Source: a virus
Lineage: Duplodnaviria > Caudoviricetes
Virus record (IMG/VR): IMGVR_UViG_3300031867_000006
Span: 32,001-96,000 of that record
DNA: 64,000 nucleotides
Direction: 5' to 3' (one strand)
Shown here: piece after piece, positions 4,221-39,369 of the stretch
How the letters are laid out: each line of letters starts with the position of its first letter
How positions within the stretch are numbered: the first letter of the stretch is position 1
Notes under the pieces: model-generated
Databases searched by the model: none
What the model saw: the letters and a program-made list of their open reading frames with translations, nothing else
Told to the model about the DNA's origin: nothing
Program-made: the position numbers and the translations under genes

Positions 4221-5357
4221 CTAAAAGAGAATAGAGTTTGCTGAATCAGGGATGGAGTCAAGAACTTCATCCTGTTTATATTTCTTAGAGTCAAGCTTTT
4301 TGATTTCACTCTCAGCTTTCTTCTCGCCAGTTCTAGTTTCAACCTTAATACCATTGGAGATCTTCTTAAAGAAATCAGCAACCTTACGCTGCTTCTTAGC
4401 AACCTCTTTTTTGTCTTTAATGTCTTTTGCAAGGTTATTCTCTATATTATATGCGTTCATCTGCAACAATGTAGCCTGCGCATCAAAGTAGTTGGCTACC
4501 TTGCTGCGGCTATAATAAAAGAAAAATATTAATTCTCGGATAATAGGAATAATCAGTAATATTAATCCAAGCGATACTGCAATGCTACTTGCGGTAAACG
4601 CCACCCCATATCCAACAAAGTTCTTAGATCCTTTAGCAGCATTCTGTTGCATAACAAAATCCATAGCCTTATCGAATTCACCGGAGGCACAGATCTTATT
4701 GAACTTTGCCAGATCTCTGAATAACAGATTATCCTTAGTCTTAGCAAGTCCTGCTCTATCTACTGCAATTTCAAATCCTTCATCGTCAGGAGCTTTAATG
4801 AATTCAATACAACTACTAATCATAAAGGATACAGAGCTAACTATAGAAAGAGCTATTGTATTGTAGATGATGATGGGCATCTGCACATTCAAAGCATAAG
4901 CTTTTTCGAACATGTCCTTACGATCAATCAGATTCTGAAGACTTAAGCTTACCGTGTTAATGCTATCCAACGGCTGGTTATAGTTCTGCAGAATGTCGGT
5001 AATGATATTAATGCAATCTACCAGTTTGTCGTAACTGTCGATCTTAGTTATATCACCTCTAGACATAGGAATCGTGCCGAAATCTATGTCATCCACCTTA
5101 TCTACAATGTGCTTGTACAGCTTATTAGATAACGAAGTCATCACCACATTTTGATCGTTTTCATTTACAGTCAATAACACCTTCCGTGTCATCTCATCTT
5201 CCACAGAAAAGTATTTCATCGCCTCATTAAACTGACGGGATCTGTATATGGAATCGTAGTCAATATCATCCCTAGTGGTAGAGGCTTCGTCAAGCATATA
5301 GCCTGTAAAGTCAACAGCTTCTTCAGCTACCTGTTTAGGTTCATATGTAGTAACCAT
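4221..5357 (-). CDS. Hypothetical (probable virion) protein with a hydrophobic helix
   Basis: 378 aa, RBS; hydrophobic segment IAVSLGLILLIIPIIRELIFFFY. Confidence 0.7.
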   Translation of the reverse strand: MVTTYEPKQVAEEAVDFTGYMLDEASTTRDDIDYDSIYRSRQFNEAMKYFSVEDEMTRKVLLTVNENDQNVVMTSLSNKLYKHIVDKVDDIDFGTIPMSRGDITKIDSYDKLVDCINIITDILQNYNQPLDSINTVSLSLQNLIDRKDMFEKAYALNVQMPIIIYNTIALSIVSSVSFMISSCIEFIKAPDDEGFEIAVDRAGLAKTKDNLLFRDLAKFNKICASGEFDKAMDFVMQQNAAKGSKNFVGYGVAFTASSIAVSLGLILLIIPIIRELIFFFYYSRSKVANYFDAQATLLQMNAYNIENNLAKDIKDKKEVAKKQRKVADFFKKISNGIKVETRTGEKKAESEIKKLDSKKYKQDEVLDSIPDSANSILF

Positions 5358-5379
5358 TGCTCAGTGATCCTCCTTTCCA

Positions 5380-6693
5380 CTATCGATTTATCTTACTCAT
5401 TAAGTTAACAACTTTCTTATATGAGGAGTCCTTAGCCTCCTTCTCAAGTGCATCATAAGTGATGGTCTCGTAAGTACTGTCACCATCATCAAATAAGAAT
5501 TTAGCGATCTCAAGTGTTTCATCGCAAATAACAATATCCATAAGATTAAATTTATCCAGAATTGATCTGGTTACATGGCTCTTGTCCATATCAACGTCGT
5601 TATATTTCTTAAGATATTCAACCTCATCCTGAGACATCACAAGTGATGTAATGGGTGAAGCATCATTTCTCTTAAGCAGCGTCATGAATTTGTTCATAGT
5701 GGCTCTTCTTTCAAGAACCTTGAACATCTTCGCATTATTCGAATCACTAGCCATGTTGATGGCGTCAATCTTAGCTTTATCGATTGCAAATGCTAAATCC
5801 TTGAAGAATGAAATCTCTCTTGTTGATGCTCTCACAAGGTTAAATAAACTGTTCGAGTCCTTATATTTAGATACCACCCTATTTATAATTTCCATTGACT
5901 CTACTAAGTACATTTTTGCCTTGATACCAACAACTGCCATCTGATTGATAGCGTTACCATCCTTCGTGTAGATGAAGTTAATCTGCATCATAGTGGGCAT
6001 AAGTTCATTAGCCTTATCAAGCTGAGGCTGTGTCAATTGCTGCTTCAGGAAATCTGAAGTATCTTTATTGTATCTGGCATGATCTGTACCAAACCTAGTC
6101 GGCACAGTGCCCCTCGTATGCATAGGCATTCTCACACCCATGGGGGCTTCCGTCATAAGTTCTACGCTGGATTCACCATAAGCATTCTTGGTAATCTTAA
6201 AATCGTTAATTGAAGTCTCGTTATATACCTCATCGAGATAAAAGTTAAGATTCTTCATATCCTCTTTAACTATCTCGAAGGCATCACGATCTGTAATAGT
6301 AATTCCAGACTCCAATGCATCGATCTTATCCAGTGCATCAATTAGATCACTTAATCCATATCCCTTACGGAGATCCAGATTATTATGGAACTGGCTAATA
6401 TAGCCATCCAATGTATCTTTATCAGAAAACTGTATAGAATTGAATAAAAGCTGCATAAGTGAAGCACACTTACGTTCAACGGCTTTATTAACAATCATAG
6501 CAGTCTGATAACTAATTGAATCCGATACTAATACCGGAAATACCAAAACCAGATTGGAAGCTCGGCGAGCTATAGATCCAGTACTATTTCTTTTATTGAT
6601 CCAATCAACCTGGTCAAAATCTTTGACGCTAGTAATAACGTCATAAATGTCTCGCACAATCGTTTCGTGCAGTCTTTGACACTCGTTCATCAC
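5380..6693 (-). CDS. Hypothetical protein, probably structural
   Basis: 437 aa ORF with RBS and late-type promoter at 6717-6728. Confidence 0.7.
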   Translation of the reverse strand: MMNECQRLHETIVRDIYDVITSVKDFDQVDWINKRNSTGSIARRASNLVLVFPVLVSDSISYQTAMIVNKAVERKCASLMQLLFNSIQFSDKDTLDGYISQFHNNLDLRKGYGLSDLIDALDKIDALESGITITDRDAFEIVKEDMKNLNFYLDEVYNETSINDFKITKNAYGESSVELMTEAPMGVRMPMHTRGTVPTRFGTDHARYNKDTSDFLKQQLTQPQLDKANELMPTMMQINFIYTKDGNAINQMAVVGIKAKMYLVESMEIINRVVSKYKDSNSLFNLVRASTREISFFKDLAFAIDKAKIDAINMASDSNNAKMFKVLERRATMNKFMTLLKRNDASPITSLVMSQDEVEYLKKYNDVDMDKSHVTRSILDKFNLMDIVICDETLEIAKFLFDDGDSTYETITYDALEKEAKDSSYKKVVNLMSKINR

Positions 6694-36149: not shown

Positions 36150-38006
36150 TTAGAATAATGACATAATTAAAGCTTCGTCTATATTTTCTCTACTCGGTAC
36201 ATACGCTGTACGCTTGTTAAGAATCTTAGACTCCACATAATATCCATCTATACAATACTTGGTTTCAAGCTGGAAATCCTTATACTGATTAAATAAGAAT
36301 CGTTCCTTGCCCTCAGGTGCTGGAAGAATCATATTAACTTCTTTGATACCTTTTATATCAGAATCATATTTAGCCTTGACTGTTGCAAGCTCACTAAGTA
36401 TTCCAAGTTTTAACCCAGTGAAATCGACTTTCTTGAAGTTCTCATCGAAATCTATCTGATCTTCTGTAAGCATAGGCTTTCCAGTAAGTGCTGTATAGAA
36501 GAATGTATTATCTACAGTCTTATTAGTCCTATAAGCTTCATAGACTTTCATAAATCTATGAATATCTCCAACAAACTCATACTCTGCTTCTAGATAATAA
36601 TCAGCAACTTCTTTATGAGAGAGTATTGTGAGATGACCCTCTTCATCAATTGCAATGTACTTATCTGATACTACATCTGGTGAGAATAAATACTGGGTTG
36701 GATCTATAGTCTTATTATACTTATTAGTATGAACCTTCATGATGAATGGTTTCTTTATACCAGCTATAGGATTCATTGCTGCTAGAGACATAGCCTCATG
36801 TTTATATAATTCCATATACTGCTCATCATCATACCTTACGGGATACTGTATTTTCCATTCATATGATAAGTCATCTGCTACAGAGATGATGCCCACACAA
36901 ATTGGCGTAAGGTGATCCGGAAGATCCTCTCTAGAACCATTGCAAATGAATACATAAGCGTCTTCTTTCTCACCATCCTGATCTGGCGTATAAGCTTCTA
37001 TAGCATCCTGAATAGATTCAGCCCATATATCCTCAGTAACATCTCCGGGATTACGCTGGTCTGATATATACCAATGCTGAATTTTATCTATATCAATAAG
37101 TTTCAATCCGCATGGTGTAGATATAATAATATTATTCATTCCTTCCATTACATCGGCATCTTCTTTGAGATATTTAGCAACCTGAGAGGTGTCTTTAATA
37201 GAAATATTATATCGCTTTGCCGCAGATCTAATCCTTCTAGCTAATAATGGTTTCTTATCTTCACTAGCATGACCAAACAACTTTATGGCAGAATTTATAT
37301 GCTTTTCAGAATCTAATGGGAACTTGCGATCTTCAGGAATACCGAACGCAGAATCTGGTAAATTAGATCTCTTTGTCGCAGCCTCATTAAACTTATGATC
37401 TGTCCAAACCTGATAATTCGCTTTAGTAAGCTTATCCTTATGGGATAAGAGATATTCCAAAGTAAATGGTTTATTACCATATACATTAATATTGTCTTGC
37501 CCATTGGTTGTGAAGTACATAGATAAATCATGGATATGACCATGAATATTCAGATCCACTCCAGGAATCTGCTCCACATTCTCAGGTCTATGCGAGAAAT
37601 ATACTCTAACTCCATCAAAGTCATGAATAAGATATTCATATATAAAATCGAATCCACAGTTTTCATAGAAATCAGAACCCTGCATACCATCATGATTGCC
37701 TATAATAAGCAGCTTCTTTCCAGGTATTGACTTCATGATCTCTTGAGCCTGAGCAGAATCTTCTTCATTAGCATATCTAAAGCAGATGTCGCCTAAGAAA
37801 AGAAAGACGTCATTGTCTTTAATATTCTTCTTACACCAAGAAACCATATTCTGTATATTTATCTTATTCTTACCCTTGCCGTATTTATGAGCATTTATAT
37901 GCCAATCGGAAGATAAGAAAATTCTATCTTTAGGCGTATTATCTAAAAGATAATGAATATCATTACTATCTATCTCTTCAGGAGTATTCAAATTAATACT
38001 ATCCAT
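36150..38006 (-). CDS. Calcineurin-like metallophosphoesterase fused to a DUF6582-like domain
   Basis: SDWH, LGD, GNHD, SHRP and HGHIH motifs, then RSNLPDSAFGIPEDRKFPL...AIKLF; late promoter 38033-38044. Confidence 0.8.
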   Translation of the reverse strand: MDSINLNTPEEIDSNDIHYLLDNTPKDRIFLSSDWHINAHKYGKGKNKINIQNMVSWCKKNIKDNDVFLFLGDICFRYANEEDSAQAQEIMKSIPGKKLLIIGNHDGMQGSDFYENCGFDFIYEYLIHDFDGVRVYFSHRPENVEQIPGVDLNIHGHIHDLSMYFTTNGQDNINVYGNKPFTLEYLLSHKDKLTKANYQVWTDHKFNEAATKRSNLPDSAFGIPEDRKFPLDSEKHINSAIKLFGHASEDKKPLLARRIRSAAKRYNISIKDTSQVAKYLKEDADVMEGMNNIIISTPCGLKLIDIDKIQHWYISDQRNPGDVTEDIWAESIQDAIEAYTPDQDGEKEDAYVFICNGSREDLPDHLTPICVGIISVADDLSYEWKIQYPVRYDDEQYMELYKHEAMSLAAMNPIAGIKKPFIMKVHTNKYNKTIDPTQYLFSPDVVSDKYIAIDEEGHLTILSHKEVADYYLEAEYEFVGDIHRFMKVYEAYRTNKTVDNTFFYTALTGKPMLTEDQIDFDENFKKVDFTGLKLGILSELATVKAKYDSDIKGIKEVNMILPAPEGKERFLFNQYKDFQLETKYCIDGYYVESKILNKRTAYVPSRENIDEALIMSLF

Positions 38007-38062: not shown

Positions 38063-38100
38063 AAAAAATAATAGACCCTCATAAAAGAGCCTATTATTTT
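38063..38100 (-). terminator. Intrinsic terminator closing the RAMP gene + pentamer array unit
   Basis: Minus strand AAAATAATAGGCTC-ttttat-GAGGGTCTATTATTTTTT. Confidence 0.75.
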
Positions 38101-38644
38101 AGTACAGCGCCTCGCTATACTCCACCGAACTCATAGTTACTGAACAGCACCACACCCTGCTTTACCGTAACAGAGCATTACAGTAATTCGCATTACTTCA
38201 CCCCACCACCACGGCACTTTACTCTACAATACCGTACCTATACTATAACCTACTCCACAGCACTCCTCCTTTACAATACGCTACGGGACATTACTCTGCC
38301 CGGCCATACCTTCGCACTACTCTAATTGACTACACATTACTTTACCTAAACCCCACGAAACATCACAGCGGAAGACCACACGATACCATTACTTTACGTC
38401 ACATTGTGAAACTAAACTAGACTTAGTCAAAACGTCGCAACAGCATACCGCATAATACTGAACAATACCGAAACACAACTCCACAGCAATGTACGCCACT
38501 ACACTATACCATTGCTACACACTACTTTGCCTTACTTTGCCTTAACTACACCAGGCCGAACCGTACGAAACTATACCTATACTTCACGTAACTCTACGAT
38601 ACTGCACCATAACAGAACTTCACTCTATTATACAACACCATTAC
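38101..38644 (-). ncRNA. Pentamer-periodic non-coding array (GY-NNN)n; candidate guide-RNA array
   Basis: By hand count, 94 of 106 plus-strand pentamers end in AC/GC; 14 single-C phase slips give 31/36/41-nt units; no ORF of 60 aa or more. Confidence 0.75.
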
Positions 38645-38651
38645 AAAGTAA

Positions 38652-39290
38652 TCAGTCTTCGATGATCTCATAAGTGAATCTACCATATGAGCCATTGCGC
38701 CACTGGCCGAGTCCATTATACTTACCGAAATCAAGCCATTCGTATACTGCCTTCTCAAGCTTGTCATTCAATAGTCTGATAACAAACTCTGCTGTTGCTC
38801 CTTCGTGGATCATTTCGCTATTAGCGAGAGATATACGAGGACCCTGCGCTGTCTCGGCACGCAATGATCTCTGAAGATTATCCATCTCTCCATCATATGA
38901 GATAGGTATCTTGCGAAGCGCAGCATCAGCATTAAGATTACCATCTTTGTCAGGCCCATAGACGAATACCATACCATCTATATATTTCTTATGGGCTTTG
39001 ATGCTGGCTGACGCGTTCTTCTCACCAAGCAGCTTAAGAATGCCGCAGGCATGCTTGAAGAACCCGCGGATCTGGTAATCCCAAAGCAAGGGGTTTCCAT
39101 CTTCATCACGAAGGAATACTGTTTTGCCCTTACGCTCAACTTCCTCAGTACCTAACGCTTCGATCTCTTCTTGCTTATTAGGAGCATCGGGCGCATTACT
39201 AGCAATATACTGACTATAGATGTCAGGATCGCTAGGTGCTGAGCCAAGAACTGGTGTTGTAAAGGTTATTCTAATCTTGATATCTTTCAT
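38652..39290 (-). CDS. Stand-alone RAMP/Cas7-like RNA-binding protein
   Basis: N-terminal beta strand IRITFTTPVLG, middle PLLWDYQIRGFFKHA helix, and C-terminal Gly-rich loop GLGQWRNGSYGRF, all characteristic of RAMP/Cas7-group proteins. Confidence 0.75.
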   Translation of the reverse strand: MKDIKIRITFTTPVLGSAPSDPDIYSQYIASNAPDAPNKQEEIEALGTEEVERKGKTVFLRDEDGNPLLWDYQIRGFFKHACGILKLLGEKNASASIKAHKKYIDGMVFVYGPDKDGNLNADAALRKIPISYDGEMDNLQRSLRAETAQGPRISLANSEMIHEGATAEFVIRLLNDKLEKAVYEWLDFGKYNGLGQWRNGSYGRFTYEIIED

Positions 39291-39334
39291 AATTTTATCC
39301 TCCTTATATTTAAGATATCTATATACTACAATAT

Positions 39335-39347
39335 TATAATATATAAC
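39335..39347 (-). promoter_or_regulatory. Early-type promoter motif GTTATATATTATA
   Basis: Upstream of the RAMP gene RBS. Confidence 0.55.
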
Positions 39348-39369
39348 TCAAATATCTTAAATTCACAAG

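What the first reader, a model, noticed from the sequence alone, without database searches (positions are those of the whole stretch)
38101..38644. Hidden punctuation: single-base phase slips cut the pentamer array into 5n+1 units
Seen: an extra C (G on the sense strand, so units usually start GGY) at 38166, 38207, 38238, 38269, 38310, 38346, 38387, 38428, 38469, 38510, 38541, 38577, 38608 and 38639. Unit lengths are 41, 31, 31, 41, 36, 41, 41, 41, 41, 31, 36, 31 and 31, plus a terminal 65-nt unit of 13 pentamers. All units differ in sequence, so this is not a slippage microsatellite. Inference: about 14 separate guides of 6-8 pentamers, with the register break as the filament boundary or processing site.
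Basis: partly seen in the sequence, partly recalled or inferred. Interest (0 to 1): 0.78.

Follow-up and report, generated by a model that had tools for sequence, protein, structure and literature searches.

The report
Punctuated VIPR guide-RNA array in phage
The five-letter-repeat tract behind a small CRISPR-like gene of this rumen phage is split by single extra G's into about 14 short units, and it belongs to the phage RNA-guided VIPR systems first described in 2026, so it is a real and tidy but already known kind of element.

Summary
On the minus strand, 38101-38644 reads as (G-Y-N-N-N)n blocks.

This is not chance. In 149 distinct related arrays, 1773 of 2016 register breaks are +1 nt, and 96% of the inserted bases are G. 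Unit lengths cluster at 5-8 pentamers.

A boundary motif flanks every unit, including the first one just after the stop codon. It reads GCAAN-G-GCA in the family and GTWWN-G-GTA here. Close relatives differ by whole units, for example indels of 26 nt and of 93 nt (31+26+36).

The adjacent 212-aa gene has a Cas7/Csm3-type fold, and 159 of 161 loci with a homologue carry such an array.

This matches VIPR systems (bioRxiv 10.64898/2026.04.26.720920 and .720927): one Vipr protomer per 5-nt repeat, fixed bases held by the protein, variable bases reading DNA. The preprints also mention YNNNG repeats and 'staggered' abutting vrRNAs.

The scan has found this family before on other DNA. RNA processing at the slips and the targets remain untested. 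My target searches found nothing.

The parts
39333..39360 (-). Promoter-like site upstream of the vipr-like gene (TTAAGA, 16 nt, TATAAT)
   Evidence: Consensus scan, 10 of 12 matches. The number of such sites in the region is not above shuffles, so this is weak.
38652..39290 (-). vipr-like gene: 212-aa lone RAMP protein with a Cas7/Csm3-type fold
   Evidence: AF2 model pLDDT 82.7. Foldseek top hits are type VII Cas7 (8z4j_J, E 8.9e-8), Csm3, Cmr4 and Cas7-11. Profile against PDB: type VII Cas7, E 0.006, at the G-rich loop. hhalign to SUSP1 Vipr: E 0.002 over the full length, with the G-loop GQWR aligned to GDWR. No Pfam, PHROG or NCBIfam family.
38639..38644 (-). Lone boundary pentamer GTAAT plus the first extra G, 7 nt after the TGA stop codon
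   Evidence: Sequence. The same lone boundary half-site follows the stop codon in 53 of 74 distinct array heads of relatives, mostly at offset 0-2.
38166..38638 (-). Thirteen abutting units of 6-8 G-Y-N-N-N pentamers, each closed by one extra G (at 38608, 38577, 38541, 38510, 38469, 38428, 38387, 38346, 38310, 38269, 38238, 38207, 38166); candidate short vrRNAs
   Evidence: Parse. Junction context. Family-wide statistics.
38101..38165 (-). Terminal unit of 13 pentamers without an internal slip (one pentamer, TATGA, lacks the G)
   Evidence: Its length falls in the 9-16 repeat range reported for type II vrRNAs.
38065..38100 (-). Intrinsic-terminator-like hairpin (16 pairs) followed by a T run, directly after the last unit; possibly also a 3' cap for the terminal unit
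   Evidence: Terminator scan. Fold energy -21.4 kcal/mol, z -4.08, 0 of 200 shuffles as stable. The cap role is inference only.

Best explanation
The locus is a VIPR (Viral Interference Programmable Repeat) system of the G-Y-NNN (YNNNG, here W-G-T/NN) repeat kind. The 212-aa RAMP gene and the array are transcribed together, from a promoter-like site upstream of the gene to the hairpin terminator at 38065-38100. By homology with the solved type II system, the protein polymerises on the RNA with one protomer per pentamer. It holds the fixed G and pyrimidine in protein pockets and presents the variable bases for gapped pairing with double-stranded DNA of competing genetic elements. The single extra G, embedded in a conserved boundary motif (GTWWN-G-GTA here, GCAAN-G-GCA in GC-richer relatives), breaks the 5-nt register, so a filament cannot run through. 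It therefore delimits about 14 separate tail-less guides of 6-8 protomers, roughly one helical turn each, plus one 13-repeat terminal guide that ends at the hairpin. The boundary is most likely also where the transcript is cut. Shown here: the grammar, its conservation, its strict link to the gene, the Cas7-type fold, and unit-wise evolution. Taken from the literature: the protomer-per-repeat filament and DNA silencing. Inferred only: cutting at the slips, the number of bases read per repeat in this family, and the targets.
For: The grammar holds at the stated coordinates. 159 of 161 loci encoding a homologue, in viral contigs, prophages of many gut phyla and one metagenome contig, have a G-periodic array; the other two are cut off by a contig end. 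It lies on the same strand, a median of 8 nt from the gene, in the 136 loci where I mapped the gene. 88% of breaks are +1 and 96% of the inserted bases are G, against 25% G at that pentamer position elsewhere. The boundary motif is seen over 579 distinct junctions. It also stands alone before the first unit and closes the last unit before the next gene's ribosome-binding site. Substitutions in near-identical units fall at 1.8% of position 1, 5.1% of position 2 and 7-10% of positions 3-5. Whole-unit indels occur: 26 nt, and 93 nt = 31+26+36. At 98-99.9% gene identity only about 54% of units are shared. The protein has a Cas7/Csm3-type fold. In the alignment to SUSP1 Vipr, the residues that hold G2 and Y3 (W178, R179) are kept as W197 and R198. 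Both residues that hold G1 (H17, D177) are replaced by S17 and Q196, which matches the loss of the first G of GGY in these arrays.
Against: No small-RNA data, so neither transcription of the array nor cutting at the slips is shown. Sequence relation to a characterised Vipr is weak (hhalign probability 14%, E 0.002) and no Vipr structure was in the fold library, so the fold match is to CRISPR Cas7 proteins. No target was found under any pairing rule. Units of 6-8 repeats with semi-conserved first and last pentamers would carry only about 8-16 specified bases under the published two-bases-per-repeat rule, which is little for a guide. No accessory (vap) gene is conserved beside the module. I could read only the legend of the preprint's 'staggered array' figure. 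It speaks of 1-nt overlapping positions, whereas this grammar is a 1-nt insertion, so the two may not be identical.
Confidence: 0.78

Rival explanations
1. The array is one long RNA coated by a continuous protein filament. The extra G is a hinge or register reset that relieves helical strain about once per turn, not a boundary between separate guides, and no cutting occurs.
For: Unit length (5-8 protomers) is close to the 5-6 subunits per turn reported for the Vipr filament. No nuclease or ribozyme is evident at the junctions. The array as a whole has no significant secondary structure (z -1.7).
Against: Units are gained, lost and swapped individually between close relatives, which fits independent information units. 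A lone boundary motif precedes the first unit. In gut phages the array sits inside an operon ahead of the next gene's ribosome-binding site. The preprint describes processed, abutting vrRNAs.
Confidence: 0.12
2. The periodicity acts at the DNA level. A protein binds every half turn of the double helix, and the extra base every 31-41 bp keeps the sites in phase with a helical repeat of about 10.3 bp.
For: 31/3, 36/3.5 and 41/4 all give 10.25-10.33 bp per turn (arithmetic on the unit lengths).
Against: The array is on the strand of the RAMP gene in all 136 loci where I mapped the gene, a median of 8 nt away, which a symmetric DNA site would not require. The inserted base is specifically G within a directional motif. 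The adjacent protein has an RNA-binding RAMP fold. In the characterised systems the repeats are RNA.
Confidence: 0.03
3. The +1 junctions are scars of how arrays grow, by recombination or duplication at a short GG-containing core. They have no role in RNA or filament function.
For: Units duplicate and diverge within arrays and are exchanged at junctions. A short conserved core would favour such recombination.
Against: The motif around the junction is conserved well beyond what recombination needs, across proteins only about 40% identical and across several bacterial phyla. The narrow unit-length distribution suggests selection on length. A solitary boundary half-site at the array head has no recombination rationale.
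Confidence: 0.07

Closest known systems
VIPR systems, type II exemplar of Escherichia phage SUSP1 (Vipr YP_009199429.1 + vap1 + four vrRNAs); bioRxiv 10.64898/2026.04.26.720920, 10.64898/2026.04.26.720927, 10.64898/2026.10.15.759431
   Same: Both are phage-borne. Both have a lone small RAMP protein of about 200 aa with a G-rich loop carrying a W-R pair. Both have a non-coding tract of 5-nt repeats with fixed G/pyrimidine and hypervariable bases on the gene's strand next to the gene. Neither has a CRISPR array or other cas genes.
   Different: SUSP1 repeats are GGY-NN; here only one G and the pyrimidine are fixed, so three positions vary. SUSP1 vrRNAs have 9-16 repeats, each with its own roughly 40-nt pseudoknot tail and spacing. 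Here 13 units of 6-8 repeats abut with a single extra G and no tail. No vap gene is conserved beside this family. G1-contacting residues H17 and D177 are S and Q here.
'Staggered vrRNA arrays' and alternative repeats (NNNGG, YNNNG, NNNNG; WGT/NN, TGH/NN) noted in the VIPR preprint (fig. S18, methods) and in bioRxiv 10.64898/2026.10.21.760802
   Same: Tail-less vrRNAs lie end to end, so that the end of one marks the start of the next. The YNNNG and WGT/NN consensus fits this window (position 5 W 68%, G 90%, T 84%).
   Different: Only a legend and one methods sentence were readable. The legend speaks of 1-nt overlapping positions and, per the text, this architecture was not confirmed by small-RNA sequencing. 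Not given there: the 5n+1 grammar, the boundary motif, the lone boundary at the array head and the unit turnover measured here.
Type III / type VII CRISPR-Cas backbone (Csm3, Cmr4, Cas7) with crRNA
   Same: These are the best structural matches of the protein. One protomer binds per fixed RNA step, and guide lengths come in multiples of the protomer footprint plus a constant.
   Different: The step is 6 nt and not base-specific. Guides come from repeat-spacer arrays cut by Cas6 and need Cas5, Cas10 or Cas14 partners. None of these is present here.
TIGR-Tas tandem interspaced guide RNA arrays (from my own knowledge; named)
   Same: Compact non-CRISPR arrays of short abutting guide units with conserved edges, often in phages.
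   Different: Different protein (Nop domain), an 18/36-nt unit with two spacers, and no 5-nt step.

Membership tests
VIPR system | Lone RAMP protein with an RRM core, G-rich loop and thumb, without a second RRM domain | tested here: met
   AF2 model (pLDDT 82.7) matches Cas7/Csm3/Cmr4 chains of about 200 aa at Foldseek E about 1e-7, TM about 0.5. The C-terminal G-loop GLGQWRNGSYGRF is invariant at G, Q, W.
VIPR system | Homology to a characterised Vipr protein | tested here: inconclusive
   hhalign of the family profile against SUSP1 Vipr gives E 0.002 and probability 14%, with 176 aligned columns over the full length. The G-loop GDWR aligns with GQWR. tblastn does not link them. No Vipr structure was in the fold library.
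VIPR system | Adjacent tandem 5-nt repeats with fixed G/pyrimidine and hypervariable remaining bases | tested here: met
   Window profile is G 90%, Y 99%, then three variable positions. Substitution rates are 1.8/5.1/8.1/10.0/7.3% for positions 1-5. This is the YNNNG form that the preprint lists as an alternative.
VIPR system | Array linked to the vipr gene, on its strand, in phage or prophage DNA | tested here: met
   159 of 161 loci carry an array; the other two are cut off by a contig end. In the 136 loci where I mapped the gene, the array lies a median of 8 nt from it on the same strand. Hosts span Clostridia, Coriobacteriia, Negativicutes, Bacteroidales and Synergistaceae.
VIPR system | vrRNAs expressed and bound by Vipr as a one-protomer-per-repeat filament | not testable with these tools
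   There are no RNA-seq or binding data. Only a shared promoter-like site and a terminator bracket the gene plus array.
VIPR system | Guides match DNA of competing elements by a gapped rule (two bases read, one skipped) | tested here: inconclusive
   No enrichment over pentamer-order permutations for eight tested rule settings in 1.27 Mb of related phage DNA. No self-target in the own genome under full complementarity. Two exact gapped patterns found nothing in IMG/VR. The databases searched were small.
VIPR system | Structured 3' tail capping each vrRNA (type II feature) | tested here: not met
   Internal units abut with one G and the array has no significant structure (z -1.7). Only the terminal 13-repeat unit is followed by a hairpin. 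The preprint says array architectures vary between types, so this does not exclude membership.
VIPR system | Accessory vap gene beside vipr | tested here: not met
   No neighbour family is shared across the loci. The window's two flanking genes have no homologue in any of the 161 loci. The preprint names six vap genes for seven types.
CRISPR-Cas type III / VII | Repeat-spacer array, 6-nt protomer step, and partner cas genes (cas5, cas6, cas10 or cas14) | tested here: not met
   TRF and Rfam find no repeat array or CRISPR repeat. The step is 5 nt. Neighbours are an Ig-domain protein and a metallophosphoesterase.

The most novel reading that the evidence does not exclude
In this tail-less branch the GG junction within its boundary motif is a self-sufficient signal. 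It both nucleates and terminates one-turn mini-filaments, and is cut by Vipr itself or a host RNase. Because the pocket for the first G of GGY is lost (H17 to S, D177 to Q), three bases per repeat are free. The pairing code may then differ from the published two-read, one-skip rule, for example three bases read per repeat.
Probability: 0.2. Interest if true: 0.6.

Novelty: new member of a known kind. Interest (0 to 1): 0.4.

Why it matters
VIPR systems are a months-old discovery, and only type II has been dissected. This locus and its roughly 150 distinct relatives give a clean, quantified grammar for the tail-less form. The grammar has four parts: units of 5n+1 nt, a directional boundary motif on both sides of every guide, guides of about one filament turn, and unit-by-unit turnover faster than the protein gene evolves. 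It also yields a testable link between two substituted G-loop and beta-sheet residues and the loss of one fixed base in the repeat. That is useful for annotating such arrays, which current protein and RNA family libraries miss entirely. It is also useful for designing compact multiplexed guides. It does not change the picture of what these systems are.

Tried and rejected
- **Self-targets.** Full-complement search of all 15 units in the phage's own 166-kb genome gave best hits equal to reversed controls.
- **Gapped 4-of-5 seed search.** In 1.27 Mb of related loci it gave 5 antisense hits against 4 in controls.
- **Published and alternative pairing rules.** Eight settings were run against the permutation control: positions 3-4 or 4-5 with skip 1, positions 3-5 with skips 0-2, and positions 2-4 with skip 0. 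An apparent threefold excess for contiguous triplets against a reversed control (47 vs 16) vanished with whole-unit scoring. It also vanished with a pentamer-order permutation control (17 vs 12.9 +/- 2.4). The individual 16/18 matches are therefore chance level.
- **Exact gapped patterns.** Two window units found nothing in IMG/VR.
- **Stop-codon depletion.** Variable triplets show only a weak TAA/TA deficit.
- **Close relatives of this phage.** blastn against phages gave nothing. The single metagenome scan gave one locus at 56% identity.
- **Family libraries.** Rfam, Pfam, PHROGs and NCBIfam have no family for the RNA or the protein.
- **Nucleotide-level indel lengths.** These are noisy because replaced units misalign; 15 of 44 indels of 10 nt or more are 1 mod 5, which is only mildly supportive.
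- **DNA helical-phasing idea.** Considered and rejected on strand specificity.

Full report
**The sequence**

Window 38101-38644 lies between two minus-strand genes. On the minus strand it is poor in C (G 180, T 177, A 128, C 59). G recurs every fifth base, with autocorrelation +0.38 at lag 5 and +0.24 at lag 10.

I wrote a dynamic-programming parse that lets pentamers follow each other directly or after a gap of 1-9 nt at one flat penalty. It returns blocks of 6-8 pentamers of the form G-Y-N-N-N, each followed by a single extra G.

- Eleven are called directly as a +1 G.
- The parse did not cover 38639, behind the lone leading pentamer; I read that slip by eye.
- Two slips (38428, 38269) are called as +6 because the next pentamer is atypical.
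- The unit lengths and the terminal 13-pentamer unit are as stated.
- A lone pentamer, GTAAT, plus G stands at the head of the array, 7 nt after the TGA stop of the upstream gene.
- Shuffles never approach the observed parse score.
- The chance that all 11 unambiguous inserted bases are G is about 1.6e-8.
- Tandem Repeats Finder sees no repeat, so the units do differ.
- No other tract in the 166-kb genome has this periodicity.

**The neighbouring gene**

The 212-aa ORF at 38652-39290 (minus strand) has no Pfam, PHROG or NCBIfam family. It has more than 300 homologues in metagenomes.

An AlphaFold model built on 33 of them (pLDDT 82.7) matches type VII Cas7, Csm3, Cmr4 and Cas7-11 at Foldseek E about 1e-7. 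A profile search of PDB sequences finds the type VII Cas7 G-rich loop.

A promoter-like site lies upstream of the gene. A strong hairpin terminator (z -4.1) directly follows the last unit, so gene and array look like one transcript. The array itself has no significant fold.

**Comparative evidence**

I collected 80 viral contigs, 80 prophage or MAG loci from Clostridia, Coriobacteriia, Negativicutes, Bacteroidales and Synergistaceae, and one rumen metagenome contig.

159 of these 161 loci carry a G-periodic array; the other two are cut off by a contig end. In the 136 loci where I could map the gene, the array is on the gene's strand, a median of 8 nt away. It lies downstream in 106, upstream in 29, and overlapping or on both sides in 1.

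Nothing else is conserved around the module. In temperate gut phages it sits in the early operon, after Cro/CI-type and antirepressor genes and before SSB and RecT.

In the 149 distinct arrays:

- 1773 of 2016 register breaks are +1.
- The inserted base is G in 1708 of those, against 25% G at that pentamer position elsewhere.
- Units between two breaks average 6.28 pentamers with sd 2.04 (a random process would give 5.76).
- 84% of units have 5-8 pentamers.

Over 579 distinct junctions the consensus is GCAAN-G-GCA. In the two AT-rich relatives, this window and L161, the C's are T's.

Arrays open with a lone boundary pentamer plus G, mostly within 0-2 nt of the stop codon (53 of 74 distinct heads). 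In the gut phages they close with the boundary motif just before the next gene's ribosome-binding site. Every unit is therefore flanked by the motif on both sides.

**Evolution of units**

In near-identical unit pairs, differences fall at 1.8% of position 1, 5.1% of position 2 and 7-10% of positions 3-5.

Between close relatives whole units are inserted, deleted or replaced at the junctions:

- L077 has one extra 26-nt unit relative to L037.
- L076 has three extra units (93 nt = 31+26+36) relative to L013.

At 98-99.9% identity of the gene only about 54% of units have a counterpart, and at 90-95% only about 23%.

**What it is**

A look-up of earlier notes of this scan pointed to 'VIPR' systems. 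I checked the papers.

The discovery preprint (10.64898/2026.04.26.720920) describes phage-borne lone RAMP proteins (Vipr) with vrRNAs made of GGY-NN pentamers.

- In type II, a vrRNA has 9-16 repeats plus a structured tail.
- The variable NN bases read double-stranded DNA with one base skipped per repeat.
- The result is silencing of competing phages and satellites.
- The methods list alternative repeats, including YNNNG.
[quoted passage not shown] This architecture was not confirmed by small-RNA sequencing.

The cryo-EM preprint (10.64898/2026.04.26.720927) shows several details.

- One protomer binds per repeat.
- There are six subunits per turn, or five when DNA is bound.
- G1 is held by H17 and D177.
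- G2 is held by R138 and W178.
- Y3 is held by R179 and neighbouring residues.

A third preprint lists non-canonical motifs such as WGT/NN, which fits this window.

I fetched SUSP1 and aligned its Vipr to the family profile. The score is weak (E 0.002, probability 14%) but the alignment runs the full length. The G-loops align as GDWR with GQWR, and H17 aligns with S17.

The two published G1 contacts are thus replaced, while the G2 and Y3 contacts are kept. That agrees with arrays in which only the second G and the pyrimidine of GGY are fixed. This correlation is my inference from a weak alignment.

The SUSP1 arrays themselves are GGY-NN runs, each with a hairpin tail. They are unlike the abutting units here.

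**How the punctuation most likely works**

A protomer-per-pentamer filament that reads a fixed G and Y cannot continue across a 1-nt insertion. The junction also recreates a full GGY at the start of each unit. The simplest reading is that each 5n+1 unit is a separate short guide of about one helical turn, and that the boundary motif marks where the transcript is cut or where filaments start and stop.

The terminal 13-repeat unit followed by a hairpin resembles a canonical tailed vrRNA. Cutting, the enzyme responsible and the number of bases read per repeat are not shown.

**Targets**

I found none. Tests covered the phage's own genome and 1.27 Mb of related phage DNA under eight rule settings with permutation controls. 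Two exact patterns were also run against IMG/VR. The databases within reach were small, so this says little.

**Verdict**

The element is an unannotated member of a kind described in 2026, and this scan has already met the same protein family in gut phages.

New here are the quantified 5n+1 grammar, the two-sided boundary motif, the unit turnover and the residue-to-repeat correlation.

The closest relatives of this phage (70-81% identity) could therefore not be examined.

Noticed in passing
L037, L071, L077 (about 4620-5260 in each locus): An ORF of about 200 aa with an HNH-type homing-endonuclease look is inserted between the vipr-like gene and its array. The array still starts right after that ORF's stop codon with the lone boundary motif.
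   Followed up: no
L109, L110, L133, L135, L137, L153: Pentamer-periodic tracts lie on both sides of the vipr-like gene, like the upstream plus downstream vrRNAs of SUSP1.
   Followed up: no
L013, L022, L037, L076, L077 and others, inside the arrays: A widely shared element is seen in which a +1 break is compensated 9 nt later by a 4-nt step (GCAAA-G-GCTAT-GGAT-GCAAG). This gives long 13-pentamer units. It is conserved while neighbouring units turn over.
   Followed up: no
window 36150-38006 (-): A 618-aa protein with an N-terminal calcineurin-like metallophosphoesterase domain and DUF6582 starts about 60 nt after the array's terminator. It has no homologue next to any other vipr-like gene, so there is no support for an accessory role.
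   Followed up: partly
L081 and L082 (contig JAGCAN010000001.1, 70347-76967 and 22454-29074): The same vipr-like gene and array appear twice, about 48 kb apart, on one 86-kb contig of an Oscillospiraceae MAG. This may be a concatemer assembly of a phage or two copies.
   Followed up: no
phage records BK013345.1, KP282676.1 / NC_028651.1: Distant homologues (about 25% identity, E 5e-5 to 1e-4) of the protein occur in Aquificae Conch Spring virus and Hydrogenobaculum phage 1, annotated as hypothetical. The family therefore reaches thermophile viruses.
   Followed up: no
L008-type gut phage loci, about 5370-5580: A 69-aa NrdR-like zinc-ribbon ORF follows the array in about 38 related loci. It could be a small DNA-binding partner in that sub-lineage, but it is not conserved across the family.
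   Followed up: partly
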